IMG/VR virus record: IMGVR_UViG_3300042286_000173
Reading direction: 5' to 3' (one strand)
Origin: a virus
DNA: 42,565 nt
The translations under genes were made by a program, and so were the position numbers. Under the pieces are notes generated by a model that saw only the letters and a list, made by a program, of their open reading frames with translations, did no database searches and had not been told where the DNA came from. Below, piece by piece: positions 7,804 through 31,709 of the stretch; the stretch's first letter is position 1; the number at the start of each line of letters is the position of its first letter.

Positions 7804-8282
7804 GGGTAAAAGTCGAGATACGAAAGGCCGTGGCGGAAGACGTCGGCGCGCTGCTCCGCGAAGGGCTGCGCGCGTCTGACGTGCGGGAAGTAAAGCGCAT
7901 GACCGGTGACGGGCCCGCGGAAGCCTTGTGGGAATCCTTTGTGCGCTCGGTGGAAAGCTACTCCGTTTTCGCCGACGGTACGATATGCGCCATGTATGGA
8001 ATGGCGCCAAAGGGGCTTATGTGCAACGACGGAAACCCGTGGTTTCTTGCCACGGATGTTGTTGAAAAGTTCTGGATGCAGTTTGCCGTCGTATCCGGCC
8101 GCGCGGTGCGCGAGCTTTGCGATGGATACGATGAAGTGGTCAACTACGTTGACGTAGAACACGAAAAGTCAATCCGGTGGCTGCAGTGGCTGGGGTTTGA
8201 CGTCTGCAAGGATGTTGTCCGCCTCGGCCCCGAGTCGCACCCGTTCTATAAGTTTACAAGGAAAGGTGCATCATGTGCGTAG
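7800..8282 (+). CDS. Virion-module protein in the T7 gp13 slot, function unknown
   Basis: ATGA overlap with the upstream stop. 160 aa, with an alpha/beta sequence character. Assigned by position only. Confidence 0.55.
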   Translation: MRVKVEIRKAVAEDVGALLREGLRASDVREVKRMTGDGPAEALWESFVRSVESYSVFADGTICAMYGMAPKGLMCNDGNPWFLATDVVEKFWMQFAVVSGRAVRELCDGYDEVVNYVDVEHEKSIRWLQWLGFDVCKDVVRLGPESHPFYKFTRKGASCA

Positions 8283-8818
8283 TAACAACAGCGGTGGCAG
8301 GCAGCGCCACGGCGGCTTTTGCGGCGAACGCGGCTATCGCGGCGTCCGTGGTCGGCGCTGGCATGTCCGCATACGGCGCGTATCAGCAGCAGGAAGCAGC
8401 CAACGCGCAGGCCAAGTACCAGGCGCAGGTGGCGGCGAACAACGCCGAGATAGCCCGCATGGAAGGGGATTACGCGCGCGAGCAGGCGCAGAGGAAAGCG
8501 GACGAGCACCGCGACGAGGTGCGCAGGTTTATCGGCGCACAGCGCGCGGCGCAGAGCGCTTCCGGCTTTATCGTGGATAAGGGGACAAACCTTGATTTGA
8601 CGCTTGACTCCGCGGCGCTTGGCGAGATTGACGCGATGGAGATACTCCACGAAGAGGGCGAGATGGCCGCGTGGCGGTCCGAGCTGAGAGCGTCTAACGC
8701 GGAAGCGCAAAGCGCGTTGTACTCGTCCAGCACTTTCAACTCGTTCACCCCGGCCATGGGTCAGCTCGCGGGCGGCCTGGGCCAAGCCGGCGGCATGTAC
8801 TACACTTTTACGAAATAA
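8273..8818 (+). CDS. Internal virion (ejection) protein, gp14 slot
   Basis: 181 aa. N-terminal hydrophobic A/G/V-rich segment (VVTTAVAGSATAAFAANAAIAASVVGAGM) followed by a Q/A-rich coiled coil. Syntenic position. Confidence 0.6.
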   Translation: MCVVTTAVAGSATAAFAANAAIAASVVGAGMSAYGAYQQQEAANAQAKYQAQVAANNAEIARMEGDYAREQAQRKADEHRDEVRRFIGAQRAAQSASGFIVDKGTNLDLTLDSAALGEIDAMEILHEEGEMAAWRSELRASNAEAQSALYSSSTFNSFTPAMGQLAGGLGQAGGMYYTFTK

Positions 8819-8827: not shown

Positions 8828-10798
8828 ATGCCTAACGTACCTGTTTACCAGAAACAGACACAGATCAACACGAGGCTTAATGCGCCGCAGCAGAGCATAA
8901 ACGCGCCAATCGAAGCCTTCGGGGGTGGTAAAGGCGCACTGGCTGCAGGGGACGCGCTCGGTAAAGCGGGCACCGCGCTCTCCGGCGTGGTGGCGGGGGA
9001 AAAGAATCTTGCCGAGAAAAAAGGCAAAGCGTGGGCGGACGCCACGGCCGCGAAGCTGCAAAGCTGGTTCAACGATCCCGAGAACGGGTATTATAAGCAG
9101 ACGCTGCAACGTGTCGGCGAAGGAGCCAACGGGCTTACAAAAGAAGCGCGCGAGGCGTACGACACCAAGGTGGCCGAGCTCATGGGCGACGCGCCTAACC
9201 AGTACGCGAGGGAGCAGTTCTCCGCGAAGGCGCTGGCGCTGCATTCCCGCGATATAAGCGCGGTTGCCAAGCATGAGGCCAACGAGCTTAACAAGTGGGC
9301 GGTCACGTCTAAGAAAAGTCTCGTAGAAGGCAATCTGCGCACAATCATAACGCAGGCGTCTTCCTTCGCGAAGATTGACGAGGTGGACGAGCAGTTCAGC
9401 GCGCTGGTGGATAGCGGAGACCTTGAGGAGCTGGCGGCCATGACAGGTGCTCCGGTGTCTGAGCTGCGCACCGCGGTAAAAGCCAAGATGTATGAAAGCG
9501 TGATCAATCAGGCGCTGGCGAACAACACTCCGGAACGTGCGCGGGCCATGCTTGAGAAGTGGGGCGATAAGCTCGACCCCGACGCGGCAGCCAAGGCCAC
9601 GAAAACTATCAGGGGTGCCGAAGATGAAGCGGCGGCGGCGGATGCTACCCTCGCAGCCGCGCGCGGTGATATCGGCGGCGCCCGCGCGGCTGCAAGGGGT
9701 GTGCAGGACAAGAGCACCCGCGCGAAGCTTGAGGCCAAGATTGTGAAGCTCGAAACAGACCTGTGGGCCGATGAGTCCGCGGGTCTGCTTATCGCCGAGG
9801 TGGCCGCCGGTAACAAGAGCGAGGCCGAGATAAAAGAATTTATCTCAAACATGAAAAACCCCGTGCGCAAATCGGCGCTTGATTCCGCGTTCCGCGCAAG
9901 GATTACACAGCACAAGATTATCGAGCGGGAGAACAAGCTCGACGCCGTGGATAATCTGTTCACGCAGATATCCGGCGTAGCCACCGACCCCGTGGCCGCA
10001 CAGAAGATGCTTAGAGACATGGAAGCCTCGCAGGATACGGAGCAGGGCCGATACCTGTACACTAAGGCGAAAGCGCCGCTCGAGAACATAATCAGGTCCG
10101 CAGGGGTTAACCCCCGCGACGACGTGACAACCCACGTGGACCTGCAGGATAAGATAGACCGCGGGGAGATTACCGACCCCCGCGAGCTGCGCGAGGCGGC
10201 GCTCGGTAAACTCATACCGCAGACGGTAGACAAGATGGTCAAGGACATGCAGGCCAAGCAGGTCGTGCGCGCCGCCGATCTTAAATCGGCTTTCCTGTCT
10301 CTGGTCGAGGCTAACGATGTTTCGCAGCTTTCAGACAGTGAGAAAAAGAAATGGCTTGCTTTCCGCGAGGCGGCCACGGAACGCGCCAAGGAAACGAACA
10401 AGGGGCAGGATGAAAATTGGCTCCGTCGCCTTGCCGCGTCCATGCTGGTGGAAGGGGAGACCGATCCCGACGCGGTGTTCTTCACGGGCGACAAAGACTT
10501 CCAGAAGATTTACAGCCGGATTACCGGCGCGAGGCAGGGGTCTTCCGCGTGGAAAGACGCGGCGGATGAGTGGAACAATTTTCTCCCGACGTGGGACACG
10601 ACGCCGACGGACATGCAGAACCAGATAGAAAGCCACTGGGCGCAGTCTGCGGACCTGCGGCAAAAGCTCCTGACCCTTATTGACGCCAAAGGGTATAAAG
10701 GCTCAGATGTGGAGCGTGCAGAGTATGCCAAGCGGCTACTGTACAAGCAGGTTATGGCAAAGCAGTTCGGGTTGCCCGCGGCATTCATAACGCAGTAG
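8828..10798 (+). CDS. Internal virion (ejection) protein, gp15 slot
   Basis: 656 aa, largely helical and A/K/E-rich. It lies between the gp14-slot and giant gp16-slot genes. Confidence 0.6.
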   Translation: MPNVPVYQKQTQINTRLNAPQQSINAPIEAFGGGKGALAAGDALGKAGTALSGVVAGEKNLAEKKGKAWADATAAKLQSWFNDPENGYYKQTLQRVGEGANGLTKEAREAYDTKVAELMGDAPNQYAREQFSAKALALHSRDISAVAKHEANELNKWAVTSKKSLVEGNLRTIITQASSFAKIDEVDEQFSALVDSGDLEELAAMTGAPVSELRTAVKAKMYESVINQALANNTPERARAMLEKWGDKLDPDAAAKATKTIRGAEDEAAAADATLAAARGDIGGARAAARGVQDKSTRAKLEAKIVKLETDLWADESAGLLIAEVAAGNKSEAEIKEFISNMKNPVRKSALDSAFRARITQHKIIERENKLDAVDNLFTQISGVATDPVAAQKMLRDMEASQDTEQGRYLYTKAKAPLENIIRSAGVNPRDDVTTHVDLQDKIDRGEITDPRELREAALGKLIPQTVDKMVKDMQAKQVVRAADLKSAFLSLVEANDVSQLSDSEKKKWLAFREAATERAKETNKGQDENWLRRLAASMLVEGETDPDAVFFTGDKDFQKIYSRITGARQGSSAWKDAADEWNNFLPTWDTTPTDMQNQIESHWAQSADLRQKLLTLIDAKGYKGSDVERAEYAKRLLYKQVMAKQFGLPAAFITQ

Positions 10799-10805: not shown

Positions 10806-13800
10806 ATGAGCATTCTTGACCAAGTTACTGATAATATTCTCGAGGCCGATTCTATCGGCCTTTTGCCTGAAACAGCCACCGCGGACGATCTGTCCTCGGC
10901 AGTTTCGTATAGACCGGATGACGCGTCACCCCTCAAGAGAGTAAGCCTCGACACACCCAAAGTGCCGCCGCAGCAGGCGGTGCAGGACGCGCAGATAGCC
11001 AAGGCGAAGGGAGTAACCCCCGAGCTTGTGGCGCAGCAGCGCGAGCGTTTCACCGTCGAGAACGAGCTGGACGAGATAGTTAACGCCACGGTGGACGCAC
11101 CGGCAACGCGCCGGTACCTCACCAACCCGAACAACCTGCAGGTCAGCCGGAACGATGCCGGAAGGCTCGCAGCACTTGAGCGGGCCGCGGCCAAGATGAA
11201 CGGGGTGTACGGCGACGAAGAGGAAGACACCTCGCTCCTCGGGTACTTCTGGCAGTACGCTAAAGGGGTGGTCTCCGATATCGCGTCCGGCAACGTGGCC
11301 GAAACCGAACGGTGGAACCCCGACGATTCCGATTCCCGCCGCAGGTTCGAGATGTCGCTCAACGGCGTTGACCGTGCGGACCTGTTCCGTGTCCGTTCGG
11401 AGCTTATGCGCTCCGGAATGAGTGAATCCGAAGCATCAGCGGAAGCCATGCGCCGCAACCTCGCAGACCGCGGGGAGTATTGGCAGGGTGTCGCGGACGA
11501 TCCGGATTTTGCCGTGGACGAAGCGTACCGCAATCCGCAGACCTTCGCCGAGAAAGTTTTCGCGGCGGCCGGTGGCACCGCGCCGGGCATGGCCGCCACG
11601 GTCATAAACCCTGTCGTCGGTACGCTCGCCTTTACACAGCAGATATATGGCAGCGAGTACCGGAGCCTTGTTGCGTCGGGGGCTGACCCGAAAGCGGCCT
11701 CGGACGCCGCGTTCATTTCTTCGCTGGCACAGATGCCGCTCGAGTTTGCGGGCAACATGATACAGCTCAACGCCGCAGCTAAAATGCTCAAAGCAGGCCC
11801 GACCCGCGATTTTCTTGTGAACCTCTTGCAAGGTGGCTTGTCCGAGGGTCTCGAGGAGTATCTGCAGCAGGCGCCCGGCTTGTACGGGGAGATCCGCGCA
11901 CATAACCCCGACTGGACGCAGGAGCAGATATTCGCCGAGTTTTTCCGGAAGCTTCCCGAGCACATGGCTTCCGCTGAATCCGGCGAGGCATTTCTCATCG
12001 GCGGCACGCTGGGCATGGTTCTTCCGGGCGCGGCAGGGGCTATCCGCCTGCCGTCGGCTATCCGCGAGCAGAAACGTATCGAGGCAAATTCCGCGCGCGA
12101 ACAGGAATTGCTTTCCGCGCTTGACGAAACCGCGCAGGCCACGGAGACCGGGCAGCTTTCGCCGGAACACCTGCAGGCCGCAGTGCAGGCGATACGTGAC
12201 CAAGTGGGTGAAAACGTTTCGACGGTGTACGTGGACGCCGAGGCGTTTATCGGGAACCTCGGGGAAGAGGCCGGTGCGGTGGCTGAGCGCGTCGGCATAT
12301 CCGACCAGCTCGACGCGGCCTATTCGTCCGGCGGGCTTCTCGAAATTCCCATCGCTAAATACGCGGCGTACATTGCCGCGGTGCCGGAGATCAATAACGC
12401 GCTTATTGAGCACCGCAAGTTTTCCCCCGGCTCCATGACCTTGTCGGAGCAGCAGGCGTATTTTGCCAGCCAGCAGGACGAAATGCAGCGTCTTATAGAC
12501 GTGGTGGCCGAGGAGCAGGCCGCGGCGGACGTTATCGAACAGGAAGCCGCGGACGTTGTAAAAGACCTTACCGAGAAGCTGAAAGCCACCGGCAGGATCA
12601 AAGGGAAGGAGCGCGATAACGCCGTTCTTTACGCGGCGAGGCTTGCCACCCTCGCGCGCAGATCCGGCGGCCAGTACGGCGTTAAAGACTTGTACGAGAC
12701 CTACGGCCCTATCCTCGGCGACTCGCTGGCAGACGTTACCGTCAAGAGTGAAGGGCGGATGATGGAGCAGGCCACCGTGGCCGTCGAGACCGCAGGCGCG
12801 GACGTGAACAACGCTGCTGAGGTCGAAGAGGCCGCGCGGCTGTGGCGGGAGCAGGGTACCGAGTCGCCGTATTTTAAGCGGTGGTTTGGCGACTCCAAGG
12901 TGGTTGACGAGCAGGGTAAGCCGCTTGTGGTGTATCACGGAACGACGGCGGACTTTGATGCTTTCGATCTCGGCTTCGCCGGGGCGGACGGCGTGCTGTA
13001 TAGCACGCCTGCGATCTTCGCCACGTCTGACCCTAATCTCGCCAGCGACTACGCAGTCAACAAGTTTGACCGCGTAATCGCGGATGCGATGCGGGACGTG
13101 CAGAAATTCAAGAATGAGAACCCGGGCACTTATGATGAGAGGTATGAAACTGCGTACGGCGCCCTAAAAAAAGCGTTCCGGGATGTTAAAGGAGCGGGGC
13201 GACCCGAAACCGGCGGCGGCGCGAATGTCATGCCGCTCTACATGGCACTAGAGAAACCACTAGTGTTGGATGCCGACGGGAAACGATTCATGGAGGTTAT
13301 GCCTGACGCGATCGCGCGGGCGGTTGCGGAAGGTAACGATGGGGTTATCGTTAACCGTGTGCGCGATCACGCTTCCCCCGCGTCGGACTACCCGGCGCAG
13401 GTGCTTATCGCCTTCCGCCCCGAACAGATTAAAAGCGCCACGGGCAACCGTGGCACGTTCGACCCGTCGGACGCGCGCATAATGTATCAGTCCGCTTTTC
13501 ACGGAACCCCGCATAAATTCGACAAGTTTACTCTGGACGCTATCGGCTCCGGCGAGGGCGCGCAGGCTTACGGGTGGGGGTTGTACTTTGCGGGACGGAA
13601 AGATGTTGCGGAATGGTATCGAAAAAGCCTGACCGCCCAGCAGGACCTGATAATCGAAACAGAACAAGGGCGTTTTATTGATACAGACGAAGGGTGGCGG
13701 GAAGAAAGCAGTGACTACGATTTTGAAGACCCGGACTCCCCCTATGGGATGATGCTTAGGCATTTTGCGGAATCCGAAGATGTGGACGTGGCGAGAGAAG

Positions 13801-16800
13801 CCCTTAGGGAGGCGATTAGCGACGCGGAAGAATTTGGTGAAGACTTTAACGGGCAAGCCGAAGCCCTGCGCGAAGCTGTGCTATTGCTCGATACTGCACG
13901 GCCTCGTGTTGGGGCCGCGGGCCAGTTATATGAGGTCGAAATACCAGACGATAGCGAACTATTGATGTGGGACAAACCGCTGTCAGAGCAGCCTGAGAAA
14001 GTGAGGGCGGCGATCGAAAAAGCAGATGTGGTGGGGGACGACGCAACAGGGGCAAACGTATACCACGTGCTTAAAAACAACCTGAAATGGCAAGGCCACA
14101 AAAACCGCGCTGAGCAAGCAGCCTCCGAGTACCTGAACAGCCTCGGCATCAAGGGCATCAAGTATCTTGACGGTACAAGCCGCGCGGCGGGTGAAGGCTC
14201 GTACAACTACGTCATATTCGATGACAACGCGATTGAAATTCTGAACACGTTCTATCAAGCTAAAGAAGCCCGCCCGAATCTGCAGAACATGCAGGACTAC
14301 GCAAGGGGCGCCACGTTCTTTGCCAACTCCGTTGTGAGGGGGAAGACCGGTCAGCCCTTGGTGGCTCTGTTCAAGCACTCGGATGAATCCACGTTTATGC
14401 ACGAAGCCGGGCACGTCTTTATTGAAATGACACGCCACCTCGCCACGCAGCCCGGAGCGCACCCCGAGATTGTGCGGGAGTGGCAGGACATAAAAGCGGC
14501 ACTTGGCATACCCAACGACGGAAAGATCAAATCCAAGCACCACGAGGCTTTCGCCGAGGCGCTGGAAAAATATCTTGCGCAGGGTAAGGCTCCTTCCATG
14601 AAACTGCGCCACGTGTTCGAGCGGTTTTTCGCTTGGATGCGGTCTGTGTACCGTTCGTGGGTGGCCGAAGGCGTCACCCCCGATGAAAGGCTTGTGCCGA
14701 TCTTCGACCGCATGTTCGCAACGGATGCGGAAATCGCCGAGGTTGAAGAATACTACGCCGCGCAGAAACCGTTTTTCACTGCGGCCGAGATGCAGGACAA
14801 GGACGAGCAGGACCGGTACCTCAAGAGGATAAAAGCCGCGCAGGAGTCTGCGAGGGAAAAACAGTTCCGCAGGTACTGGAACGCGTACAAGAAAGCGCTG
14901 GGCGGCAAGAAGCGTTTCGAGGAGGAAGCGAAGACGGAAGTCGACGCCATGCCCGTTTACGCCGCGGCGGATGAGGCGGTCAGCAAAGGCGGGTTCTCCG
15001 GGGAAGACCTTGACTATATGGTTGGCAACGACCTGCGGTCGGAGCTTGCGAAAAAGCGCCCCGGCCTCGTAACCAAAAAAGGCGGCGCGGCTCCCGAGTC
15101 CGTCGCGCTCAAGTACGGGTATGATTCTGTTCAGGACATGGTGGCCGACATTCTCAACGCCGAAAGTAAAACCGAAGCGGTGGCCAACCGTGTGAAGCAC
15201 GCGCTTATCGCCGAGGAGCAAAGACTCCGCAAGGGCTTGCAGGAGCGCGGAGAGCTTAATGGCGACGAAGCGTTTCACGGTGCCGAGCAGCTCGCTGTGC
15301 TGGCTGCGGAATTTGAAATGGCGCAGGCACGGGCGCGGGGCAGAAAGGCCGTTGAAAAGGCCGCGAAGGACTTTACGCCGCCTGAGGCGGTGCAGGCTGA
15401 TGCACGCGCCAAGGCGCAGGAAGCGGCCGACCGGTTCCATGCTGCTTGGAAAACGAAAGACGCTAAAGAGCTGCGCGCTTTTGTACGTGCCACGCTCGAC
15501 TCCATGCAGTCGTACCAGACTCTTGCCGCGCTCAAAGAGGCGCCGCTCGACCGGGACCACCTTGTAAAGTATTACGGCAAGGACACCGTGGCGGATTTGG
15601 ACGCTAAACACCCCGGCATAGTCAAAAAGGATTCCGGACGCGCTGCCGATGACGCAGCCACCGAGCTGGGGTACGCGGATACGGACGCGCTTATATCGAT
15701 GCTGCAGGACACCGAACCCCGCAAGGCCGCGTATGAGTCCATGCTCGCGGAGTATGAGGCCGAGTTCAGGTCTGATACGTTCGACGAGGAGGCTAAAGTT
15801 TTCGCAGACACGTATCAGCGTTTCGTGGATTCAGACCCGAGAACAGCCCTCGCCCGCGCGGAGTATAACGACAGGGTCATGCTGGCCGCAGGCAAGCCTT
15901 CCCGCGTCGAGGTTGCCGCAGTCCGTGCCGTGGCTCGCAAGATGCTGGCAGGCCGGAAAGTCAAGGACGCCATGAACCCGGCCAAGTTCCAGACGCAGGA
16001 GCGCAAAGCGGCCAATGCCGCGCTGGCGGCCAAGGCCAAAGGTGATATGGACGCCGCGCTCGAGTGGAAGCGGCGCCAGCTTCTCAACCACGCGCTTGTT
16101 ATCGAGTCCATGAAAATACGCGAAGAACGCGCGGCCACGGTGGCACGCCTCAAGCGCGCGCTTAAAAGGGATATCGCGGACACATACAACGCGCAGGTTG
16201 TCAGTCTGCTTTCCAAGTTCAGGCTTACCGGCCGCGAAGCGAAGGAAGGAACACCGACACTCGAGGCGTTCCTCGAGTCCATCCAGAACAGCGCCACGGA
16301 CTCCCCGTTCATGGGCGCAGTGCCGGACCTTCCCCGCTGGCTTTTCGATGACTCGAAGGTGCCTGCAGGCGGCGCAACCTTGGCGGACGTTCTCACCGTG
16401 GATGAGCTGCGGGAGTTTGACGCCGCGGTTAAATGGCTCGTCGAAACAGGGTACGACATAAAGCAGGGCAGACTCGCGGCGTACAACGAGCACATAAAGG
16501 ACTTGGTGGCAAAGCTCACTGAGCCTATGCGCGAGCTGAAAGACAAGCGGGTCATATCCAAACGGTTTGAAACGTGGCGCAGACTCTCGGACGCTACGCG
16601 GGAATACTTTGCCGACCACAATATGTTGATCTTTGTTCTGGACGCGCTGGACGGGTACACAAACATAGGCAAGAAAGGCTCGTTCGGCCCGAACCGGCGC
16701 ACGATAGGCAATGCTCTCGCGGACCGCCAGTCTGAAAGAGACAAGCGCATGGGTGAAGCCTCGGAGAAATTAAAGCCCATTATGGCGCAGTTCGCGGAGT

Positions 16801-18596
16801 CCATGCGCAAACACCCTAAAATACTGCGCACTACGGTGCCGGTGCCTGAGGTCATGCGCGAGGACGGGGATTTCTGGAATTTCCCGAAAGTGCTTGCCGT
16901 GGCATTCAACATGGGCAACGCCACAAACATGCGGCGTGTCATGGAAGGCTACGAGCTCAGCGAGGCGCAGCTAAGAGAGCTCACTTCCGTACTATCCGCG
17001 GAAGACTGGAACGCCGTGCAGCAGGTGTGGGACACGCTTAATACGTACTGGACGGATATGAACGAAGTCCACAAGCGCACCTACCATTTTGAGATGAACA
17101 AGGTTAAGGCTGACCCGATAACGGTTCGGGCTTCCGACGGCTCACAGGTGCGGCTGCGGGGCGGGTACTACCCTATAAAGTTCAACCCCCGCTACGCGCG
17201 GCAGGTGGGCGCATGGTCTGAAAAAGACGATCTGATGCAGGACAGCGTATTCGGCCACCCGGCCACCAAGTCCGGAATGACCAAAGACCGTAAGGGCGCG
17301 GGTGTGAGGTTGCCGGTGCTCCTCGACATATCGGTGCTGTACGGACACATCGAGGATTCCATCCATTTCATAACCCATGCTGACCTTATCCGTGACCTCG
17401 ACCGCATCACGCAGAACACGGAGTTCCAGAACACAGTACGGCAGAAGATGGGGCGCGAGGTGGCCGACATGTTCCGCCCGATGCTGCGCCACATTGCGCG
17501 GCCTGAAAGACAGATGAACGTTGTTATTGAACGCGGATTTGACCGGATGCGCGCCATGTCCACCGCGTATATTCTCGGGCTTAACACGAGCGTTGCGCTT
17601 AAGCAGGTGTTTTCGCTTCCGGGTATCTGGCATGATATCGGAATGACCAACTACGCGAAGGGTCTTATCCATGTCATGCGCCACCCTGTGCAGGCGTACC
17701 ACGCCATGCGCGAGGCCAGCACCTACATGGCGACGCGCTCCGACTCGTTCGACCGCGATCTGAAAGACTCGCTCGGGCGGATGAGTGGCGGGCGGATGAG
17801 CCGCGGATATCTGGACGTAGCCCGCGATTGGGCGTTCGCTCTTATCCGGCTCATGGACTTTGTGGCCGTGTATCCTTCATGGCACGGTGCGTACAAGCTG
17901 GGGCTTGAAAAGGAAGGCGGCCACGAGGGTGCGGTGCGTTTCGCGGATGAAATGATCCGGCAGTCTCAGCCTTCTTCGAAGCCTATGGATATGTCCAAGA
18001 TCCAGTACAAGCGCGGCGGCCTGTTCAAAGCCATGTCCATGTTCATGACGTTTACCGCCAAGTATGGGAACCGGCAGCGCCACTTCGCCCGCGCTTACTT
18101 CAAGGATAAAAAGATAACCGCCCGTGAATACGCTTGGCACCTTATGCTCGAGGCCGTGGCGCCGCCTGTGCTTATGAACCTCATGTTCGCCGCCATATGG
18201 GGTGATGAGCCGGACGAAAAAGACATGCTTATCGATGTTATCTCGTACCAGTTCTCGGGGTATGTACTGCTCCGCGATATCGCCGGGGTCGCATCCGCTG
18301 CGGTTAAACAGTCCGCGCTTGATAAGGACGTCTTTAAGCCGAACCTCGACCGCGTTCCCGCGCTCACCGGGCTTACTCTGGCGGAGCGCGCCGTTACAAA
18401 TACGGTGAAGTGGGTGGCAGATATGGATGATGAAGACGCAAGGAATAAAGCATTCTTGGACGTGGCGGAGCTGCTTTCGTTCTTCGCCGGTGTTCCGGCG
18501 CCGAAGCTGGCGCGCAAACTCGCCAAAGGATACGAACAATTTGAAGACGACGGCAACCCGCTTTTGCTGGTTGTCCCTGACTATAGCCGAGACTAG
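10806..18596 (+). CDS. Giant internal virion protein (2,596 aa) with embedded ART-like and zincin modules (polyvalent-protein architecture)
   Basis: Single uninterrupted ORF in the gp16 slot. Motifs YHGT (H711), FHGTPH (H899), HEAGH (aa 1199-1203) and a C-terminal hydrophobic segment LMLEAVAPPVLMNLMFAAIWG. Antisense ORFs across it have shadow-type R/G/P/S composition. Confidence 0.85.
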   Translation: MSILDQVTDNILEADSIGLLPETATADDLSSAVSYRPDDASPLKRVSLDTPKVPPQQAVQDAQIAKAKGVTPELVAQQRERFTVENELDEIVNATVDAPATRRYLTNPNNLQVSRNDAGRLAALERAAAKMNGVYGDEEEDTSLLGYFWQYAKGVVSDIASGNVAETERWNPDDSDSRRRFEMSLNGVDRADLFRVRSELMRSGMSESEASAEAMRRNLADRGEYWQGVADDPDFAVDEAYRNPQTFAEKVFAAAGGTAPGMAATVINPVVGTLAFTQQIYGSEYRSLVASGADPKAASDAAFISSLAQMPLEFAGNMIQLNAAAKMLKAGPTRDFLVNLLQGGLSEGLEEYLQQAPGLYGEIRAHNPDWTQEQIFAEFFRKLPEHMASAESGEAFLIGGTLGMVLPGAAGAIRLPSAIREQKRIEANSAREQELLSALDETAQATETGQLSPEHLQAAVQAIRDQVGENVSTVYVDAEAFIGNLGEEAGAVAERVGISDQLDAAYSSGGLLEIPIAKYAAYIAAVPEINNALIEHRKFSPGSMTLSEQQAYFASQQDEMQRLIDVVAEEQAAADVIEQEAADVVKDLTEKLKATGRIKGKERDNAVLYAARLATLARRSGGQYGVKDLYETYGPILGDSLADVTVKSEGRMMEQATVAVETAGADVNNAAEVEEAARLWREQGTESPYFKRWFGDSKVVDEQGKPLVVYHGTTADFDAFDLGFAGADGVLYSTPAIFATSDPNLASDYAVNKFDRVIADAMRDVQKFKNENPGTYDERYETAYGALKKAFRDVKGAGRPETGGGANVMPLYMALEKPLVLDADGKRFMEVMPDAIARAVAEGNDGVIVNRVRDHASPASDYPAQVLIAFRPEQIKSATGNRGTFDPSDARIMYQSAFHGTPHKFDKFTLDAIGSGEGAQAYGWGLYFAGRKDVAEWYRKSLTAQQDLIIETEQGRFIDTDEGWREESSDYDFEDPDSPYGMMLRHFAESEDVDVAREALREAISDAEEFGEDFNGQAEALREAVLLLDTARPRVGAAGQLYEVEIPDDSELLMWDKPLSEQPEKVRAAIEKADVVGDDATGANVYHVLKNNLKWQGHKNRAEQAASEYLNSLGIKGIKYLDGTSRAAGEGSYNYVIFDDNAIEILNTFYQAKEARPNLQNMQDYARGATFFANSVVRGKTGQPLVALFKHSDESTFMHEAGHVFIEMTRHLATQPGAHPEIVREWQDIKAALGIPNDGKIKSKHHEAFAEALEKYLAQGKAPSMKLRHVFERFFAWMRSVYRSWVAEGVTPDERLVPIFDRMFATDAEIAEVEEYYAAQKPFFTAAEMQDKDEQDRYLKRIKAAQESAREKQFRRYWNAYKKALGGKKRFEEEAKTEVDAMPVYAAADEAVSKGGFSGEDLDYMVGNDLRSELAKKRPGLVTKKGGAAPESVALKYGYDSVQDMVADILNAESKTEAVANRVKHALIAEEQRLRKGLQERGELNGDEAFHGAEQLAVLAAEFEMAQARARGRKAVEKAAKDFTPPEAVQADARAKAQEAADRFHAAWKTKDAKELRAFVRATLDSMQSYQTLAALKEAPLDRDHLVKYYGKDTVADLDAKHPGIVKKDSGRAADDAATELGYADTDALISMLQDTEPRKAAYESMLAEYEAEFRSDTFDEEAKVFADTYQRFVDSDPRTALARAEYNDRVMLAAGKPSRVEVAAVRAVARKMLAGRKVKDAMNPAKFQTQERKAANAALAAKAKGDMDAALEWKRRQLLNHALVIESMKIREERAATVARLKRALKRDIADTYNAQVVSLLSKFRLTGREAKEGTPTLEAFLESIQNSATDSPFMGAVPDLPRWLFDDSKVPAGGATLADVLTVDELREFDAAVKWLVETGYDIKQGRLAAYNEHIKDLVAKLTEPMRELKDKRVISKRFETWRRLSDATREYFADHNMLIFVLDALDGYTNIGKKGSFGPNRRTIGNALADRQSERDKRMGEASEKLKPIMAQFAESMRKHPKILRTTVPVPEVMREDGDFWNFPKVLAVAFNMGNATNMRRVMEGYELSEAQLRELTSVLSAEDWNAVQQVWDTLNTYWTDMNEVHKRTYHFEMNKVKADPITVRASDGSQVRLRGGYYPIKFNPRYARQVGAWSEKDDLMQDSVFGHPATKSGMTKDRKGAGVRLPVLLDISVLYGHIEDSIHFITHADLIRDLDRITQNTEFQNTVRQKMGREVADMFRPMLRHIARPERQMNVVIERGFDRMRAMSTAYILGLNTSVALKQVFSLPGIWHDIGMTNYAKGLIHVMRHPVQAYHAMREASTYMATRSDSFDRDLKDSLGRMSGGRMSRGYLDVARDWAFALIRLMDFVAVYPSWHGAYKLGLEKEGGHEGAVRFADEMIRQSQPSSKPMDMSKIQYKRGGLFKAMSMFMTFTAKYGNRQRHFARAYFKDKKITAREYAWHLMLEAVAPPVLMNLMFAAIWGDEPDEKDMLIDVISYQFSGYVLLRDIAGVASAAVKQSALDKDVFKPNLDRVPALTGLTLAERAVTNTVKWVADMDDEDARNKAFLDVAELLSFFAGVPAPKLARKLAKGYEQFEDDGNPLLLVVPDYSRD
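12864..13463 (+). other. ART-like module 1 of the giant protein (aa 687-886)
   Basis: SPYFKRWFGDSKVVDEQGKPLVVYHGT...IFATSDPNLASDY...VMPLYMALEKPLVLD...EQIKSATGNRGTFD. This pattern recurs in phage polyvalent proteins (ART-PolyVal-type, by recollection). Confidence 0.5.
13482..14243 (+). other. HG[ST]-led module 2 of the giant protein (aa 893-1146)
   Basis: MYQSAFHGTPHKFDKFTLDAIGSGEGAQAYGWGLYFAG...QLYEVEIPDDSELLMWD...LGIKGIKYLDG...YNYVIFDDNAIEI. Confidence 0.5.
14298..14705 (+). other. HExxH zincin metallopeptidase-like module of the giant protein
   Basis: STFMHEAGHVFIEM, with HEAGH encoded at 14400-14414. Helical region downstream with a further HHEAFAEALE. Confidence 0.6.
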
Positions 18597-18611: not shown

Positions 18612-20069
18612 ATGCTCAACGATCCGCTTAACATTATCAGCCTGACAGGCGACGGGGTTCAGACGGTCTTTGACGTCCCTTTCAAAATATGGGACGTGAC
18701 CGAGCTTGAGGTATCCGTACTCACCGCGTCGGGCACGTCTACCGTCGTGTCGGACTGGACGGCCACTATTTCACCCAGCGGTTTAGGCGGCACGGTGACA
18801 TACCCGACCGCTGGCACACCTCTCCCCCTCGGGGATAAACTTGTTGTCCGGCGTGTGGTCCCTATCCAGCAGAAAGTGGACCTCGTCCATGCCAACCGCG
18901 TATTGCCCGACGTGGTGGAAAACGCACTCGACCGGCTCACGGCCATGGTGGCGCAGAACGCGGAAGAGGTTGACAGGGCGGTTAAAGGCGCGCCCGGGCA
19001 GACAGCCACCGATTACCTGAACGAGATTGACGCGGACCGTGCAGCCGCGGAGCTTGCGGCTCAGAACGCGCAGGCCGCACAGACCGCTGCGGAGCAGGCG
19101 CAGACCGCCGCGGAAAGCGCGGCAGGTAATGCTGAGGCTTCTGCTATTAGGGCGGAGACAGCTGCTGAACAGGCTGAGCTGCCTATTGCCTCACCCGGAG
19201 AGGAGGGGAAAGTTCTTACAGTCTCTCCTTCGTTAGGTCCGGAGTGGGCAGAGGTGCCTGAGGAGCTTCCTTCCTACACACCGTTGGATGCTGGAAAGAC
19301 CCTGTCTGTTAACGCAGGAGGGGACGCAGTAGAGTGGACAGAGCGTGTTAATATTGCTCCACAAACGATAGTGAGGGCTCAAGTGGGTTCTCGTCCCGAC
19401 GGTTGGACGGCTGCTGACTGTGACGCGCCTGTAGCCAGTCTGTCCCACAGCGGTAACGTGGTGACGGTCGAGGCAGGCCTACAAGTAGCCTACGCTGACA
19501 ACGGTAGAGTACAGCTTTCTGAGGAACTGTCATCTCCACAAACTGTTGACCTGTCCTCAGCGGCTGACGGGACGCCCTATGTGTACGCTGATATAGATGA
19601 AGACGGGACTTTCTCTGGATTTGGTCATACAGCCGCTACGCCAATGGTAGGAACTGAGCGAAGCGGTGCGGGAGACCTCTACAACCCAGTCACTGTTACG
19701 CATTATAACAACTCTGATGCCCCTATACGCCGGGTGTACCTCGGGTGGGTTGAAAAGAATGGCGGCGTCATTACGGATGTGCATTGCTACAGTCTTGGCA
19801 GCAGTGTGACATTGCCGGTCTATGGTGGTGAGTTGGTGGACAAGGGGATGAACGTTTGGGAGGCGCCTCCGTTTGTTCTCAGCAAGAACGCTAGCGCAGA
19901 GGCGCAGATAGTTGCAGAAGGGCACTGGGGAAGCAGTGGTTGGCTATTTAGTCCAGAAGGAGGGGTTGGGGTAAGAGTCCATATTCTCACATACATGCTC
20001 GTGCACACTGGGGAAGATTTATTAACAGCACCAAACCGAGTACGCGTAACAGTGGATAGGGGGTATTAA
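18612..20069 (+). CDS. Tail fibre protein (T7 gp17-type N-terminal adaptor domain)
   Basis: AGGAGG lies 5 nt upstream. The N-terminus ...LTGDGVQTVFDVPFKIWDVTELEVSV...GDKLVVRRVVPIQQKVDL...ALDRLTAMVAQNAEE matches the podovirus fibre N-domain pattern. An A/Q-rich coiled coil follows, then a lower-GC distal domain. Confidence 0.8.
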   Translation: MLNDPLNIISLTGDGVQTVFDVPFKIWDVTELEVSVLTASGTSTVVSDWTATISPSGLGGTVTYPTAGTPLPLGDKLVVRRVVPIQQKVDLVHANRVLPDVVENALDRLTAMVAQNAEEVDRAVKGAPGQTATDYLNEIDADRAAAELAAQNAQAAQTAAEQAQTAAESAAGNAEASAIRAETAAEQAELPIASPGEEGKVLTVSPSLGPEWAEVPEELPSYTPLDAGKTLSVNAGGDAVEWTERVNIAPQTIVRAQVGSRPDGWTAADCDAPVASLSHSGNVVTVEAGLQVAYADNGRVQLSEELSSPQTVDLSSAADGTPYVYADIDEDGTFSGFGHTAATPMVGTERSGAGDLYNPVTVTHYNNSDAPIRRVYLGWVEKNGGVITDVHCYSLGSSVTLPVYGGELVDKGMNVWEAPPFVLSKNASAEAQIVAEGHWGSSGWLFSPEGGVGVRVHILTYMLVHTGEDLLTAPNRVRVTVDRGY

Positions 20070-21003: not shown

Positions 21004-21195
21004 TTATGCTTCATCAGGTGTTTCGTCGCCTTTTGCATTCAGCACAGCCTCTGCGATACGCTCATCATATAGACGTTTAATCTCCGCCAGCTTTTGCGCG
21101 TACGTGGTTCGCCCGTCCACCCACAAGTATATTGCACGCGGCGGAGCATTACGGATCTGTCTTGTTGTTACGCCTGTGCCCTTTTGATCGTTCAC
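21004..21195 (-). CDS. Hypothetical protein (63 aa)
   Basis: Its ORF overlaps the upstream thyX stop by 4 nt, consistent with translational coupling. No recognisable motif. Confidence 0.5.
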   Translation of the reverse strand: MNDQKGTGVTTRQIRNAPPRAIYLWVDGRTTYAQKLAEIKRLYDERIAEAVLNAKGDETPDEA

Positions 21196-21977: not shown

Positions 21978-21985
21978 AAGCTCCC

Positions 21986-22639: not shown

Positions 22640-22658
22640 GGTGGCCGCCCTCCTTCCC

Positions 22659-24944: not shown

Positions 24945-24964
24945 GTTTCCACCTCCATAAAGCA

Positions 24965-24988
24965 GCGGCACCCCACAAAGGGTGCCGC
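24965..24988 (-). terminator. 9-bp GC hairpin between the SSB and polymerase genes (attenuator or partial terminator)
   Basis: gcggcaccc-cacaaa-gggtgccgc read directly. On the minus strand it is followed by ugcuuuau. Confidence 0.55.
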
Positions 24989-25005
24989 CTGATTATGAGG
25001 GTAGA

Positions 25006-25728: not shown

Positions 25729-25773
25729 GATCTTTTTCCTTCTGTTTCTTGTCTTTTTCAGAGTGGTTACAGG

Positions 25774-27063: not shown

Positions 27064-27065
27064 GC

Positions 27066-30621: not shown

Positions 30622-30628
30622 GATTGGG

Positions 30629-31282: not shown

Positions 31283-31333
31283 GATTCTACTCCTTGCCGC
31301 CGTTCGCGGCTTCGTGATTGTCGACAATGGTCC

Positions 31334-31672: not shown

Positions 31673-31709
31673 ATCTTCCGCCTCCGTCTTTGCGGTGTTC
31701 GATTCCCCG

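What the first reader, a model, noticed from the sequence alone, without database searches (positions are those of the whole stretch)
10806..18596. Giant 2,596-aa virion-core protein carries two ART-like modules and an HExxH zincin: a candidate capsid-delivered polyvalent effector
Seen in sequence: one uninterrupted 2,596-codon ORF occupies the slot that T7-type podoviruses use for their largest ejected core protein. It comes after the gp11/gp12-like genes and the 160-, 181- and 656-aa ORFs, and before the fibre. It contains four notable parts. (i) aa 687-886: SPYFKRWFGDSKVVDEQGKPLVVYHGT...IFATSDPNLASDY...EQIKSATGNRGTFD. (ii) aa 893-1146: MYQSAFHGTPHKFDKFTLDAIGSGEGAQAYGWGLYFAG...QLYEVEIPDD...YNYVIFDDNAIEI. 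(iii) STFMHEAGHVFIEM, with HEAGH at nt 14400-14414. (iv) A hydrophobic segment near the C-terminus at about nt 18140-18205. Established knowledge: HG[ST]-led ART-fold modules and HExxH peptidase modules are recurrent building blocks of the 'polyvalent proteins' of phages and conjugative elements. These proteins are proposed to enter the cell with the DNA and neutralise host defences. Inference: this phage fuses an enzyme cocktail to its DNA-ejection core protein, so the effectors would act before any phage gene is expressed. Substrates are unknown. I did not recognise a lytic-transglycosylase motif anywhere in the ejection proteins, which is itself unusual for this slot.
Basis: partly seen in the sequence, partly recalled or inferred. 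Interest (0 to 1): 0.8.

Follow-up and report, generated by a model that had tools for sequence, protein, structure and literature searches.

The report
Giant phage ejection protein carrying ART cargo
The 2,596-residue gene is real and is the large internal "ejection" protein of a BPP-1-like short-tailed phage. It has two ADP-ribosyltransferase-like modules in a slot where related phages carry other enzymes, so it is a good new example of an already described class (polyvalent proteins), not a new kind of system.

Summary
ORF 10806-18596 (+) encodes 2,596 aa, and every quoted motif is at the stated position.

- **Gene context.** The ORF lies between gp13-like and gp14-like genes plus a 656-aa gene, and the tail fibre. 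The window is a complete 42.5-kb podophage genome.
- **Family.** The protein belongs to the Bordetella phage BPP-1 Bbp10 family, which the literature treats as a divergent T7 gp16 (IVP-D) ejection protein.
- **Family architecture.** Across more than 80 relatives, an HExxH domain plus about 1,250 C-terminal residues is constant. The N-terminal part varies from about 420 to 2,520 aa and carries typical polyvalent-protein cargo: LPD22, ART-PolyVal, PBECR nucleases, RadC, GNAT and Zeta toxin.
- **ART module i** is a clear ART-PolyVal domain (88 bits against a cut-off of 31).
- **ART module ii** is a divergent relative (hhalign 97%; ART-fold structural hits are weak).
- **Catalytic triad.** Neither module has the full H-Y-D triad: module i reads H-F-D and module ii reads H-Y-K.
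- **HExxH.** It is part of the conserved backbone, not a swapped-in effector. Zincin identity is plausible (invariant H, E, H and two downstream E) but unproven, because no profile or fold match is significant.
- **Lytic transglycosylase.** None is detectable, although relatives carry SLT in the preceding gene.

The interpretation restates the published hypothesis of Iyer et al. (2017). Verdict: a new member of a known kind, of moderate interest.

The parts
10806..18596 (+). Giant ORF of 2,596 aa: a Bbp10/IVP-D-family ejection protein that is also a polyvalent protein
   Evidence: The ORF and its translation are confirmed. Matches: phrog_9880 at 1.4e-197, Bbp10 blastp at 2e-58 and 66 phage records by tblastn.
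10944..11195 (+). LPD22 domain, aa 47-130. It is the conserved N-terminal domain of the family and its function is unknown.
   Evidence: Pfam PF18834 scores 36.3 bits against a cut-off of 28.6. It is present in 28 of 38 family members scanned.
11988..12044 (+). N-terminal hydrophobic segment, aa 395-413 (AFLIGGTLGMVLPGAAGAI)
   Evidence: Kyte-Doolittle mean 1.69. A peak at aa 250-520 occurs in 37 of 64 complete relatives. It may correspond to the membrane-spanning helices of the N4 gp50 N-terminal domain (PMC13434306); this is inference.
12105..12734 (+). Conserved N-terminal region shared with Bbp10 and Jess A gp039c, aa 434-643
   Evidence: blastp to Bbp10 397-623 gives 1e-09, and to Jess A 369-791 gives 4e-27.
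12864..13481 (+). ART module i, aa 687-892: a canonical ART-PolyVal domain with H711, F738 at the Tyr position and D845
   Evidence: Pfam PF18760 scores 88 bits, E = 1.3e-24, against a cut-off of 31.2, covering the profile 1-140. Alignment with 13 other giants shows invariant H and D and a Y/F/W column.
13482..14276 (+). ART module ii, aa 893-1157: a divergent ART-PolyVal relative with a roughly 90-aa helical insert. It has H899 and Y927, with K1116 where canonical domains have the invariant Asp.
   Evidence: Direct Pfam match is only 25.2 bits and N-terminal. There are 1,808 homologues. hhalign against canonical modules gives 96.5-97.3%. The AF2 model has pLDDT 85.7. Foldseek lists tankyrase, diphtheria toxin, RES and ParT at E about 1.
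14298..14840 (+). Backbone HExxH domain, about aa 1165-1345. HEAGH is at nt 14400-14414. The second helix is HEAFAEALEKYL, with E1247 and E1254.
   Evidence: The motif is conserved in all 7 phage homologues. Across 84 sequences, H1199, E1200, H1203, E1247, A1250, E1254, Y1256, G1260, P1263 and F1271 are invariant. The AF2 topology is strand-strand-helix(HExxH)-helix-helix(E), pLDDT 76.5. Similarity to zincins is only sub-threshold.
14841..18593 (+). Conserved C-terminal scaffold, about 1,250 aa: the ejection-protein body
   Evidence: phrog_9880 matches aa 1512-2569. The length after HExxH is near-constant, about 1,200-1,300 aa in most complete relatives. The alignment A5 supports conservation. 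Bbp10 is listed as an IVP-D homologue in PMC4819975.
18141..18197 (+). C-terminal hydrophobic segment, aa 2446-2464
   Evidence: Kyte-Doolittle mean 1.77. A peak 100-220 aa from the C-terminus occurs in 59 of 64 complete relatives.
7800..8282 (+). gp13-like internal virion protein (context)
   Evidence: phrog_308 internal virion protein at 9e-30, and a weak Pfam Phage_T7_Gp13 match.
8273..8818 (+). gp14-like internal virion protein (context)
   Evidence: phrog_418 at 9e-18 and T7_gp14 at 25 bits.
8828..10798 (+). 656-aa protein in the gp15 slot, with no detectable muralytic domain
   Evidence: No Pfam or PHROG hit. The only similarity to Bbp11 and Jess A gp040c is weak and N-terminal; both of those carry SLT. 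No SLT-type motif occurs in any of the six frames of the ejection genes.
18612..20069 (+). Tail fibre with a T7 gp17-type N-terminal adaptor (downstream boundary of the slot)
   Evidence: Fifteen PHROG tail or fibre families match aa about 10-130.

Best explanation
The ORF encodes the largest internal (ejection) protein of a BPP-1-like podophage.

**Layout.** It matches what is now known for the N4 virion RNA polymerase gp50:
- an N-terminal part (LPD22 plus a hydrophobic segment);
- a variable cargo slot;
- a conserved HExxH domain;
- a roughly 1,250-residue, largely helical C-terminal body with a conserved hydrophobic segment.

In this phage the cargo slot holds two ADP-ribosyltransferase-family modules instead of an RNA polymerase (N4), a PBECR1 nuclease (BPP-1) or the other cargo seen in relatives.

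**Proposed mechanism.**
1. A few copies are packaged on the portal with the gp13-like, gp14-like and 656-aa proteins.
2. At infection they are expelled ahead of or together with the DNA.
3. The scaffold helps build the trans-envelope conduit and anchors in the inner membrane.
4. The ART modules refold on the cytoplasmic side and use NAD+ to modify a host target before any phage gene is expressed.
5. The HExxH domain is a fixed scaffold element. Its likeliest roles are autoprocessing or release of the adjacent cargo, or regulation of it.

**What is shown here:** the ORF, the synteny, family membership, the constant-scaffold and variable-cargo architecture, and the ART-PolyVal identity of module i.

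**What is taken from the literature:** Bbp10 as an IVP-D homologue, and packaging and ejection of IVP-D and N4 gp50.

**What is inference:** presence in the virion of this phage, enzymatic activity, the target, and any peptidase activity.
For: - **Synteny with T7-type core genes:**
- **Homology to Bbp10 and to 66 phage records in the same slot:**
- **IVP-D link from the literature:** Bbp10 is tabulated as an IVP-D homologue, and the N4 gp50 C-terminal domain is also called IVP-D-like (PMC4819975).
- **Architecture:** the part after HExxH is near-constant (about 1,200-1,300 aa in most complete relatives) while the part before it ranges from 420 to 2,520 aa.
- **Cargo census of 38 members:** LPD22 28, ART-PolyVal 11, DUF7178 5, RadC 4, plus LPD3, PBECR3, PBECR5, GNAT, Zeta toxin and HATPase.
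- **Same slot, different cargo:** Bbp10 has PBECR1 at 643-729, just before its HExxH at 797.
- **Position of ARTs:** in most ART-bearing relatives the module ends about 30 aa before HExxH.
- **Cargo turnover:** a close relative (81-92% identical across the aligned segments) has an extra ART copy.
- **ART module i:** Pfam 88 bits.
- **ART module ii:** hhalign 96.5-97.3% to canonical modules, and Foldseek lists ART-fold proteins.
- **N4 gp50 comparison:** it has a membrane-inserting N-terminal domain, RNAP cargo, a C1 subdomain with HExxH and a large helical C2. It is ejected and stays membrane-anchored (PMC13434306).
- **Hydrophobic segment:** its position is conserved in 59 of 64 relatives.
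- **Published hypothesis:** the polyvalent-protein concept and the H-Y-D ART clade are described in PMC5512222.
Against: - No virion proteomics or structure exists for this phage or, in the papers I could read, for Bbp10 itself.
- The family profile finds no PDB sequence at E <= 1. From memory, solved T7 ejection proteins should be in that copy. The profile also shows no similarity to cyanophage A4 ejection proteins.
- The profile link to N4 gp50 C1 is weak: hhalign probability 10-19%, E about 1e-3.
- Neither ART module has the complete H-Y-D triad. Module i has F738 for Tyr. Module ii has K1116 where canonical domains have the invariant Asp, and its family consensus there is Pro.
- The HExxH domain has no significant zincin match.
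Confidence: 0.7

Rival explanations
1. The ART modules are catalytically dead pseudo-enzymes. On this view they are retained as NAD+/ADP-ribose or protein-binding modules, as decoys, or as bulk filling of the capsid core, and the protein acts only as an ejection scaffold.
For: - Module i has Phe at the Tyr position, and 7 of 14 canonical modules from giants also have Phe there.
- Module ii and its whole family lack the Asp that is invariant in canonical ART-PolyVal.
- Pfam matches only the N-terminal third of module ii.
- ART copy number changes between close relatives, as if dosage or bulk mattered.
Against: - H711 and D845 are kept in module i, and Phe could still stack on nicotinamide (inference).
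- The module ii family has 17 invariant and about 29 near-invariant columns across 40 sequences at 34-44% identity to the window's module. These include H, Y, S-R, N and D, which points to strong selection on specific polar residues, as in an enzyme or ligand site.
- Standalone homologues number in the thousands.
Confidence: 0.25
2. The ART modules are active, but they do not modify host proteins. Instead they act on NAD+ itself or on nucleic acids or nucleotide signals, for example as an NADase or by ADP-ribosylating DNA, RNA or immune signalling molecules. The purpose would be to blunt NAD+-dependent or nucleotide-signalling defences at entry.
For: - Foldseek neighbours of module ii include the RES NADase toxin and ParT, as well as protein-modifying toxins.
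- Other cargo in the same slot is mainly nucleic-acid-directed, such as PBECR nucleases and RadC.
- The literature notes that ARTs have a wide substrate range, including nucleic acids (PMC5512222 and PMC9503650).
Against: - All of those Foldseek hits have E about 1.
- Iyer et al. place this ART clade next to protein-modifying ARTs.
- No substrate data exist.
Confidence: 0.2
3. The HExxH domain is itself an injected effector protease that cleaves host proteins.
For: - HExxH plus two downstream invariant Glu residues.
- The strand-strand-helix-helix-helix topology is typical of minimal zincins.
- There are sub-threshold hits to Spartan/SprT, M78, DUF4344, ACE2 and aminopeptidase N.
- Iyer et al. 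list this as one possible role of MPTase domains.
Against: - It is invariant backbone, present whatever the cargo. That fits a role intrinsic to the ejection protein, such as processing, regulation or structure, better than a host-specific weapon.
- No significant match to any peptidase family was found.
- In N4 gp50 the equivalent C1/CTD is described as regulating the RNA polymerase, and no protease activity is reported.
- Two family fragments lack the motif.
Confidence: 0.1
4. The protein is a lysis protein or 'lysin with a crystallin motif', as several GenBank relatives are annotated, and is not an ejected effector carrier.
For: Annotations of Caulobacter, Nostoc and Octadecabacter phage homologues read 'lysis protein' or 'lysin'. 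phrog_873 'endolysin' matches aa 1031-1151.
Against: - No muralytic domain is found in this protein or in Bbp10, Jess A gp039c, BD1 gp16 or AF gp16.
- The phrog_873 match falls inside ART module ii, so it reflects a multidomain profile.
- The window has a separate endolysin-like gene at 38004-38429 and a holin-like gene at 39210-39797.
- The position among core genes argues for a virion protein.
Confidence: 0.03

Closest known systems
Polyvalent proteins of phages and conjugative elements (Iyer, Burroughs, Anand, de Souza, Aravind 2017, PMC5512222)
   Same: It is a giant multidomain protein encoded among late virion genes. It contains LPD22 and ART-PolyVal domains that were defined in that study. 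ART copies occur in tandem, and an HExxH domain is interspersed.
   Different: Here the cargo is attached to a recognisable ejection-protein scaffold (the Bbp10/IVP-D family) at a fixed slot just upstream of a backbone HExxH domain. That HExxH domain does not reach the Pfam MPTase-PolyVal model. BPP-1 and Bordetella are not mentioned in the main text of that paper.
Bordetella phage BPP-1 Bbp10, within the extended T7 gp16 (IVP-D) family of Hardies et al. 2016 (PMC4819975)
   Same: Same gene slot and same family. Matches are blastp 2e-58 over the C-terminal 1,000 aa, 5e-23 over the HExxH domain and 1e-09 over the N-terminal region. Both start with LPD22.
   Different: Bbp10 carries a PBECR1 nuclease domain where this protein carries two ART modules. 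T7 gp16 has an N-terminal lytic transglycosylase (from memory), which is absent here. I detected no direct sequence similarity to solved T7 proteins.
Coliphage N4 virion RNA polymerase gp50 (PMC13434306, and the Iyer 2017 description)
   Same: The order of parts is the same: an N-terminal region with hydrophobic helices, then an enzymatic cargo that must work in the cytoplasm, then an HExxH subdomain (C1), then a helical C-terminal body of about 1,100-1,250 residues. Profile-profile alignment places HExxH on HExxH and the Glu-helix on the N4 'EAYADA' helix.
   Different: The cargo is an RNA polymerase, not ARTs. The statistical link is weak (hhalign probability 10-19%). The phage families differ (Schitoviridae versus BPP-1-like).
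Phage T4 Alt (head-packaged, injected ADP-ribosyltransferase)
   Same: It is an ART delivered from the capsid with the DNA that acts before phage gene expression. It serves as the functional precedent.
   Different: Alt belongs to the R-S-E clade, is a stand-alone protein of a myovirus, and is targeted to the head by a capsid-targeting sequence. Here the ARTs are of the H-Y-D-type clade and are fused to an ejection protein of a podovirus (as described in PMC5512222).

Membership tests
ART-PolyVal (Pfam PF18760), module i, aa 687-892 | Match to the family HMM above the curated cut-off, over the whole profile | tested here: met
   The score is 88 bits (87.6 for the isolated segment) against a cut-off of 31.2. 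Profile positions 1-140 of 140 are covered, E = 1.3e-24.
ART-PolyVal, module i | H (strand 1), Y (strand 2), D (strand 5) active-site configuration (Iyer 2017) | tested here: inconclusive
   H711 and D845 align with the only invariant His and Asp of 14 canonical modules. The Tyr column holds F738 here; across the 14 modules it reads Y in 5, F in 7 and W in 2. Assigning the invariant GxDG Asp to 'strand 5' is my inference.
ART-PolyVal, module ii, aa 893-1157 | Match to the family HMM above the curated cut-off | tested here: not met
   The score is 25.2 bits against a cut-off of 31.2, and only profile positions 10-48 are matched. Homologues carry PF18760 labels, but the two I looked at in detail were only 'faint' or 'weak'.
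ART-PolyVal-related (superfamily level), module ii | Profile-profile homology to canonical ART-PolyVal, and an ART fold | tested here: inconclusive
   Local hhalign gives 96.5% (E = 8e-10) over the N-terminal 47 columns. Forced global alignment gives 97.3% over 184 columns. The AF2 model has pLDDT 85.7. Foldseek returns tankyrase-2, diphtheria toxin, RES, ParT, cholix toxin and exotoxin A, but at E of 0.8-3.5. H899 and Y927 are present; the canonical Asp position is K1116.
Polyvalent protein (Iyer et al. 2017) | Two or more domains of the polyvalent repertoire in one polypeptide, encoded among late virion genes of a phage | tested here: met
   It has LPD22, ART-PolyVal, a second ART-type module and an HExxH domain in one ORF, flanked by internal-virion and tail genes. 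Relatives carry PBECR1/3/5, RadC, LPD3, LPD23, GNAT and Zeta toxin.
Polyvalent protein | Packaged in the virion and delivered into the host with the DNA | not testable with these tools
   This rests only on synteny and on literature for IVP-D and N4 gp50.
Zincin-like metallopeptidase / MPTase-PolyVal | HExxH helix followed by a helix with a conserved Glu, preceded by a small beta-sheet | tested here: met
   H1199, E1200, H1203, E1247 and E1254 are invariant in 84 sequences. The HE residues are biased by the search pattern; the second His and the Glu residues are not. The AF2 topology is strand, strand, helix 48-67 (HExxH), helix, helix 97-113 (Glu).
Zincin-like metallopeptidase / MPTase-PolyVal | Significant profile or structural match to a known zincin family | tested here: not met
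   - Pfam finds no peptidase family for the window segment; across 84 members the best are M78 and DUF4344 in 2 members each, at E > 0.04.
- The PDB profile search gives only Spartan SprT, at E = 0.24.
- Foldseek against the PDB has a best E of 1.
- BFVD lists SprT-like and metalloprotease entries at E of 0.5-1.
- hhalign against the N4 gp50 MPTase region gives 10-19% probability.
T7 gp16 / IVP-D ejection protein family | Position after the gp13-gp14-gp15-type genes and before the fibre; a large, mainly helical protein | tested here: met
   The gene order is confirmed. Size and relatives occupying the same slot are shown. That the C-terminal body is mainly helical was not predicted here; it rests on the description of N4 gp50 C2 and of IVP-D proteins in the literature.
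T7 gp16 / IVP-D ejection protein family | Detectable sequence homology to T7 gp16 | tested here: not met
   Neither the protein nor a 33-sequence profile of the scaffold finds any PDB chain at E <= 1. From memory, solved T7 gp16 structures should be in that copy. The link rests on the HHpred chaining by Hardies et al. through Bbp10.
T7 gp16 | N-terminal lytic transglycosylase domain | tested here: not met
   There is no SLT or lysozyme hit in the giant protein or in the 656-, 181- or 160-aa proteins. No E[ST]...G[LIV][MW]Q motif occurs in these ORFs.
BPP-1 Bbp10 family (phrog_9880) | Homology over the N-terminal region, the HExxH domain and the C-terminal body | tested here: met
   phrog_9880 scores 660 bits. 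Three blastp segments match Bbp10 and Jess A gp039c. The conserved hydrophobic segment is present.

The most novel reading that the evidence does not exclude
The giant proteins of the Bbp10/IVP-D family and the N4 vRNAP may be one ancient 'delivery chassis': a membrane-anchoring N-terminus, an exchangeable cargo slot, an HExxH domain and a helical body. On this reading the invariant HExxH domain is an autoprotease or gate that releases or activates whatever cargo sits about 30 residues upstream once the protein reaches the cytoplasm. In this phage the cargo would be a pair of ART modules with complementary non-canonical triads (H-F-D and H-Y-K). They might work as an enzyme plus pseudo-enzyme pair, or on two different substrates. 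The loss of the usual transglycosylase would then mean that this phage crosses the wall in another way.
Probability: 0.2. Interest if true: 0.7.

Novelty: new member of a known kind. Interest (0 to 1): 0.4.

Why it matters
If the inference holds, this phage injects ADP-ribosylating enzymes as part of its DNA-ejection machinery, so host takeover or anti-defence would begin before transcription.

That concept is already published. Two things here are useful and new.

1. **A family-level picture.** A constant HExxH-plus-scaffold half is joined to a hypervariable cargo half, with a preferred insertion point. Cargo changes between close relatives. This makes the family a natural catalogue of candidate injected effectors and a possible chassis for delivering engineered proteins from podophage capsids.
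2. **Concrete test residues.** The candidates are H711, F738 and D845; H899, Y927 and K1116; and E1200, E1247 and E1254. They allow testing of ART-PolyVal domains and the backbone HExxH, none of which has been characterised experimentally in the papers I could search.

Tried and rejected
- **Nucleotide search:** megablast of the ORF against 50,697 phage records found no match.
- **PDB sequence searches:** phmmer of the whole protein found nothing. Profiles of the scaffold (A5) and of module ii (A1) also found nothing.
- **HExxH region as a single query:** The search for homologous proteins with aa 1147-1520 returned no hits, probably because the coiled-coil tail swamped the word filter. A 7-sequence profile found only 14 fragments, so the AF2 alignment for this domain was shallow.
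- **Foldseek of the HExxH model against the PDB:** nothing significant.
- **Pfam on 84 HExxH domains at E <= 10:** no consistent family.
- **Link to N4 gp50 C1:** tested with a single sequence, an 8-sequence profile and a 36-sequence profile. The register was consistent but the probability was only 6-19%.
- **Homology to cyanophage A4 pre-ejectosome proteins gp26-gp29:** the top Foldseek hit of module ii was 9K3A chain B, so I tested this. No sequence or profile similarity and no ART in Pfam were found. I treat that hit as unexplained.
- **'Lysin' and 'crystallin motif' annotations of relatives:** rejected as uninformative, because no muralytic domain was found.
- **Not run:** I did not run the search of protein representatives. 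It returns no annotation, and the size of the family was already clear from IMG/VR.


Full report
**1. The observation**

The window contains one uninterrupted ORF at 10806-18596 (+), with an ATG start, a TAG stop and 2,596 codons.
- SPYFKRWFGD begins at aa 687, with H711.
- MYQSAFHGT begins at aa 893, with H899.
- HEAGH is aa 1199-1203, nt 14400-14414.
- The hydrophobic stretch is aa 2446-2464, nt 18141-18197, with a Kyte-Doolittle mean of 1.77.

The window is a complete phage genome. It has a 127-bp terminal direct repeat and 58.7% GC. The gene order is:
- a terminase with a LAGLIDADG insert at the right end;
- portal, BPP-1-type capsid (GP7) and Bbp16 decoration protein;
- tail tubular A and B;
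- gp13-like and gp14-like internal virion proteins;
- a 656-aa ORF;
- the giant ORF;
- a fibre with a T7 gp17-type N-terminus, then a fibre-assembly protein.

A leftward replication module follows. The synteny claim is therefore correct.

**2. Which family it belongs to**

There is no nucleotide-level relative among deposited phages. tblastn finds 66 phage records. The backbone, from about aa 1186 to 2572, is shared with these:
- Bordetella phage BPP-1 Bbp10
- Pseudomonas phage AF gp16
- Xanthomonas phage CP2
- several Vibrio phages
- Caulobacter phages
- Nostoc and Microcystis phages
- Octadecabacter virus BD1 gp16

In every record I opened (BPP-1, Jess A, BD1, vir555 and AF), the homologue is the giant gene just after the internal-virion genes.

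blastp against Bbp10 gives three collinear segments:
- the N-terminal region, 1e-09;
- the HExxH region, 5e-23;
- the C-terminal 1,000 residues, 2e-58.

Hardies et al. 2016 list Bbp10 as the BPP-1 member of an extended T7 IVP-D (gp16) family. They established this by chained HMM-HMM matching. They state that the C-terminal domain of N4 gp50 belongs to the same family, and they note that such proteins can carry domains that must work inside the cell (PMC4819975).

I could not reproduce a direct link to solved ejection proteins. The whole protein and a 33-sequence scaffold profile find nothing in PDB sequences.

**3. Architecture of the family**

A degenerate-pattern scan of IMG/VR with the HExxH region found at least 571 relatives, and 80 loci were retrieved. 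In the complete genes:
- the part from the HExxH motif to the C-terminus is near-constant, about 1,200-1,300 aa in most members and 1,398 aa here;
- the part before it ranges from about 420 to 2,520 aa.

A Pfam census of the N-terminal parts of 38 members gave the following:

| Domain | Members (of 38) |
|---|---|
| LPD22 | 28 |
| ART-PolyVal | 11 |
| DUF7178 | 5 |
| RadC | 4 |
| LPD3 | 2 |
| PBECR3 | 2 |
| PBECR5 | 1 |
| Zeta toxin | 1 |
| DUF3293 | 1 |
| DUF3990 | 1 |
| GNAT families | 1-2 each |
| HATPase_c families | 2 each |

Other observations point the same way:
- BPP-1 Bbp10 itself is LPD22 plus a PBECR1 nuclease (aa 643-729), immediately before its HExxH at aa 797.
- AF gp16 has LPD22 plus LPD23.
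- Jess A gp039c has one ART.
- With home-made HMMs, 31 of 87 giants carry an ART-type module. Seventeen carry the canonical type and 14 the module-ii type. Only the window, its near relative L007 and L086 carry both.
- In most of them the ART ends about 30 residues before the HExxH motif.
- L007 is 81-92% identical across the aligned segments and has an additional tandem copy of module i, giving 2,976 aa.

The family is thus a constant scaffold with a hypervariable cargo region and a preferred insertion point. This is the definition of the polyvalent proteins of Iyer et al. 2017 (PMC5512222). LPD22, ART-PolyVal and the PBECR domains were all defined in that study.

**4. The two ART modules**

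Module i (aa 687-892) is an unambiguous ART-PolyVal domain. It scores 88 bits, E = 1.3e-24, and covers the full profile.

Module ii (aa 893-1157) reaches only 25 bits, on the N-terminal third of the Pfam model. Other evidence for it:
- It has 1,808 homologues in the 5.8-billion-protein collection. Among the 120 listed, these are mostly 250-480-aa stand-alone proteins.
- The motifs are strikingly conserved: HG[ST]PH..F, GEGAQAYGxGLYFA, LYEVxIP, WDKPLSEQ, and GIxGIKYLDGxSRxxGxGxxNYVxFDD.
- Two such genes lie inside unidirectional, structural-looking gene blocks on contigs of about 45 kb. Their stored PF18760 labels are only 'faint' or 'weak'.
- Profile-profile comparison with 14 canonical modules from the giants gives 96.5% probability (E = 8e-10) over the first 47 columns. 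A forced global alignment gives 97.3% over 184 columns.
- An AF2 model built with 40 sequences has pLDDT 85.7 and shows a large helical insert.
- Foldseek against the PDB lists tankyrase-2, RES toxin, diphtheria toxin, ParT, cholix toxin and exotoxin A. All are ART folds, but all have E of 0.8-3.5.
- The top Foldseek hit is chain B of the cyanophage A4 pre-ejectosome (9K3A, E = 5e-3, TM 0.34). I could not explain that hit. A4 gp26-gp29 show no sequence or profile similarity to this family, and Pfam finds no ART in them.

Iyer et al. describe this ART clade as H-Y-D. The triads here read as follows:
- **Canonical set:** the only invariant His and Asp are H711 and D845 (in GxDG). The Tyr column varies (Y, F or W) and is F738 here.
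- **Module ii:** H899 and Y927 align with H711 and F738. The Asp column aligns with K1116, and the family consensus there is Pro (low local confidence).

Module i is therefore H-F-D and module ii is H-Y-K. The module ii family has other invariant polar residues: D1122, S1125, R1126, N1134 and D1139.

'Two ART-like modules' is supported. 'Two active ARTs' is not established.

**5. The HExxH**

The motif [DN]LST.[LM]HE.GH..L is present in all seven deposited homologues I extracted. It is followed 45-60 residues later by HE.[FW]A..[FY]E.YL.EGKAPS.

In 84 sequences, H1199, E1200, H1203, E1247, A1250, E1254, Y1256, G1260, P1263 and F1271 are invariant. There is one caveat. The 'ST..HE' residues were part of the scan pattern and of my regular expression. 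The second His and the downstream residues were not.

The AF2 model used 15 sequences and has pLDDT 76.5. It shows two strands, the HExxH helix, a helix, and the Glu-bearing helix. That is the minimal zincin layout described by Iyer et al..

No test reached significance:
- Pfam returned nothing for the window segment. Across 84 members there were only stray hits, with M78 and DUF4344 in two members each.
- The PDB profile search returned only the Spartan SprT domain, at E = 0.24. It was aligned HExxH on HExxH.
- Foldseek against the PDB had a best E of 1, with ACE2 and aminopeptidase N among the top hits.
- BFVD gave significant hits only to family members. These were annotated 'large polyvalent protein associated domain-containing' or 'crystallin motif'. 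SprT-like and metalloprotease entries scored E of 0.5-1.

Iyer et al. defined the polyvalent MPTase from N4 gp50 residues 2130-2448, so I built a 36-sequence profile of that region from N4-like contigs. hhalign aligned HExxH on HExxH, the Glu-helix on 'EAYADA', and 'F..W' on 'FMAW'. The probability was only 10-19%, with E about 1e-3.

The 2026 N4 structure paper describes gp50 as follows:
- a membrane-inserting N-terminal domain;
- the RNA polymerase cargo;
- C1 (2124-2375), which carries the HExxH;
- C2 (2376-3500), a helical body of about 110 kDa without structural relatives.

According to that paper, gp50 is ejected, stays membrane-anchored, and its CTD regulates the polymerase (PMC13434306). 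The order of parts is the same as here. I regard the HExxH domain as a C1-like backbone element. It is probably zincin-derived, and its activity is unknown.

**6. The missing transglycosylase**

- Bbp11 of BPP-1 and gp040c of Jess A occupy the slot of the window's 656-aa ORF. Both have SLT domains.
- AF gp15 and BD1 gp15 are annotated as lysozymes.
- The 656-aa protein has no Pfam or PHROG hit.
- It resembles Bbp11 only weakly, over an N-terminal helical stretch and not over the SLT region.
- No SLT-type signature occurs in these ORFs in any frame.
- An endolysin-like gene (38004-38429) and a holin-like gene (39210-39797) lie elsewhere.

**7. Other conserved features**

- A hydrophobic segment 100-220 residues from the C-terminus is present in 59 of 64 complete relatives.
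- An N-terminal hydrophobic segment is present in 37 of 64.
- Forty-five of 64 giants have no cysteine. This would suit proteins that cross the oxidising periplasm unfolded, but that is speculation.

**8. Verdict**

The feature is real and well described. It is a member of the Bbp10/IVP-D ejection-protein family and, at the same time, a textbook polyvalent protein.

Precedents exist in T4 Alt and N4 gp50, and in the remark by Hardies et al. on IVP-D proteins that carry intracellular enzymes.

What this analysis adds:
- the constant-scaffold and variable-cargo anatomy, with a fixed insertion point;
- the finding that the HExxH belongs to the scaffold;
- the non-canonical triads of both ART modules;
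- a close relative with a different ART copy number;
- the loss of the muralytic domain.

Nothing here shows packaging, delivery or activity. I rate it a new member of a known kind, with interest 0.4.

Noticed in passing
window 1-127 and 42439-42565: The first 127 nt are identical to the last 127 nt. This is a direct terminal repeat typical of a circularly assembled, complete genome of about 42.4 kb unique sequence at 58.7% GC.
   Followed up: partly
window 40033-42519 (+): The large-terminase-like ORF (828 aa) has a LAGLIDADG_3 domain at aa 300-358, upstream of the Terminase_6N match at aa 447-609. This could be an intein or a homing-endonuclease insertion in the terminase.
   Followed up: no
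window 10806-18596 and 64 complete relatives (loci L001-L086): The 2,596-aa protein has no cysteine, and 45 of 64 complete family members have none either. This may reflect selection against disulfide formation during passage through the periplasm.
   Followed up: partly
window 8828-10798 (+): The 656-aa protein in the gp15 slot has no detectable domain and lacks the SLT transglycosylase that Bbp11 (BPP-1) and gp040c (Jess A) carry in the same slot. How this phage breaches peptidoglycan is open.
   Followed up: yes
L007 3922-12849 (IMGVR_UViG_3300042274_000052): This close relative is 81-92% identical in protein sequence across the aligned segments, and its giant protein is 2,976 aa. It has an extra tandem copy of ART module i, plus an unassigned segment of about 160 aa before module ii. 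Cargo copy number therefore changes on short evolutionary distances.
   Followed up: partly
AF2 model of window aa 887-1160 compared with PDB 9K3A chain B: The best structural match of ART module ii is a chain of the cyanophage A4 pre-ejectosome (E = 5e-3, probability 0.99, TM 0.34). A4 gp26-gp29 show no sequence or profile similarity to this family, and Pfam finds no ART in them. This remains unexplained.
   Followed up: partly
window 36645-37292 (+): This 215-aa ORF matches collagen-like tail-fibre repeat families at aa 20-98 and a Holliday-junction resolvase family (phrog_1770, 1e-15) at aa 96-211. It is an odd combination.
   Followed up: no
L006 (Pseudomonas phage AF gp16), aa about 800-815: AF gp16 has a second HExxH (VVMHEVQHAIQ) in its cargo region, 200 residues upstream of the backbone HExxH. 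Pfam gave no peptidase hit for it, only LPD22 and LPD23.
   Followed up: no
proteins P0133 and P0134 (metagenomic fragments): These two relatives of the backbone HExxH domain keep the downstream 'GKAPS...VFDRL' block but have QLQLG/QLQSG in place of HExxH. The motif is therefore not universally retained.
   Followed up: no
window 21195-33111 (-) and 33914-36184 (+): The replication and nucleotide module contains ThyX, an NAD-ligase-like N-terminal domain protein, a family A DNA polymerase, an Enc34-type SSB, a DUF2800/PD-(D/E)XK nuclease, an SNF2 helicase, a PAPS-reductase-like protein and a PrimPol-VapE primase. No integrase turned up among the ORFs scanned, which did not cover every ORF of the window.
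   Followed up: no
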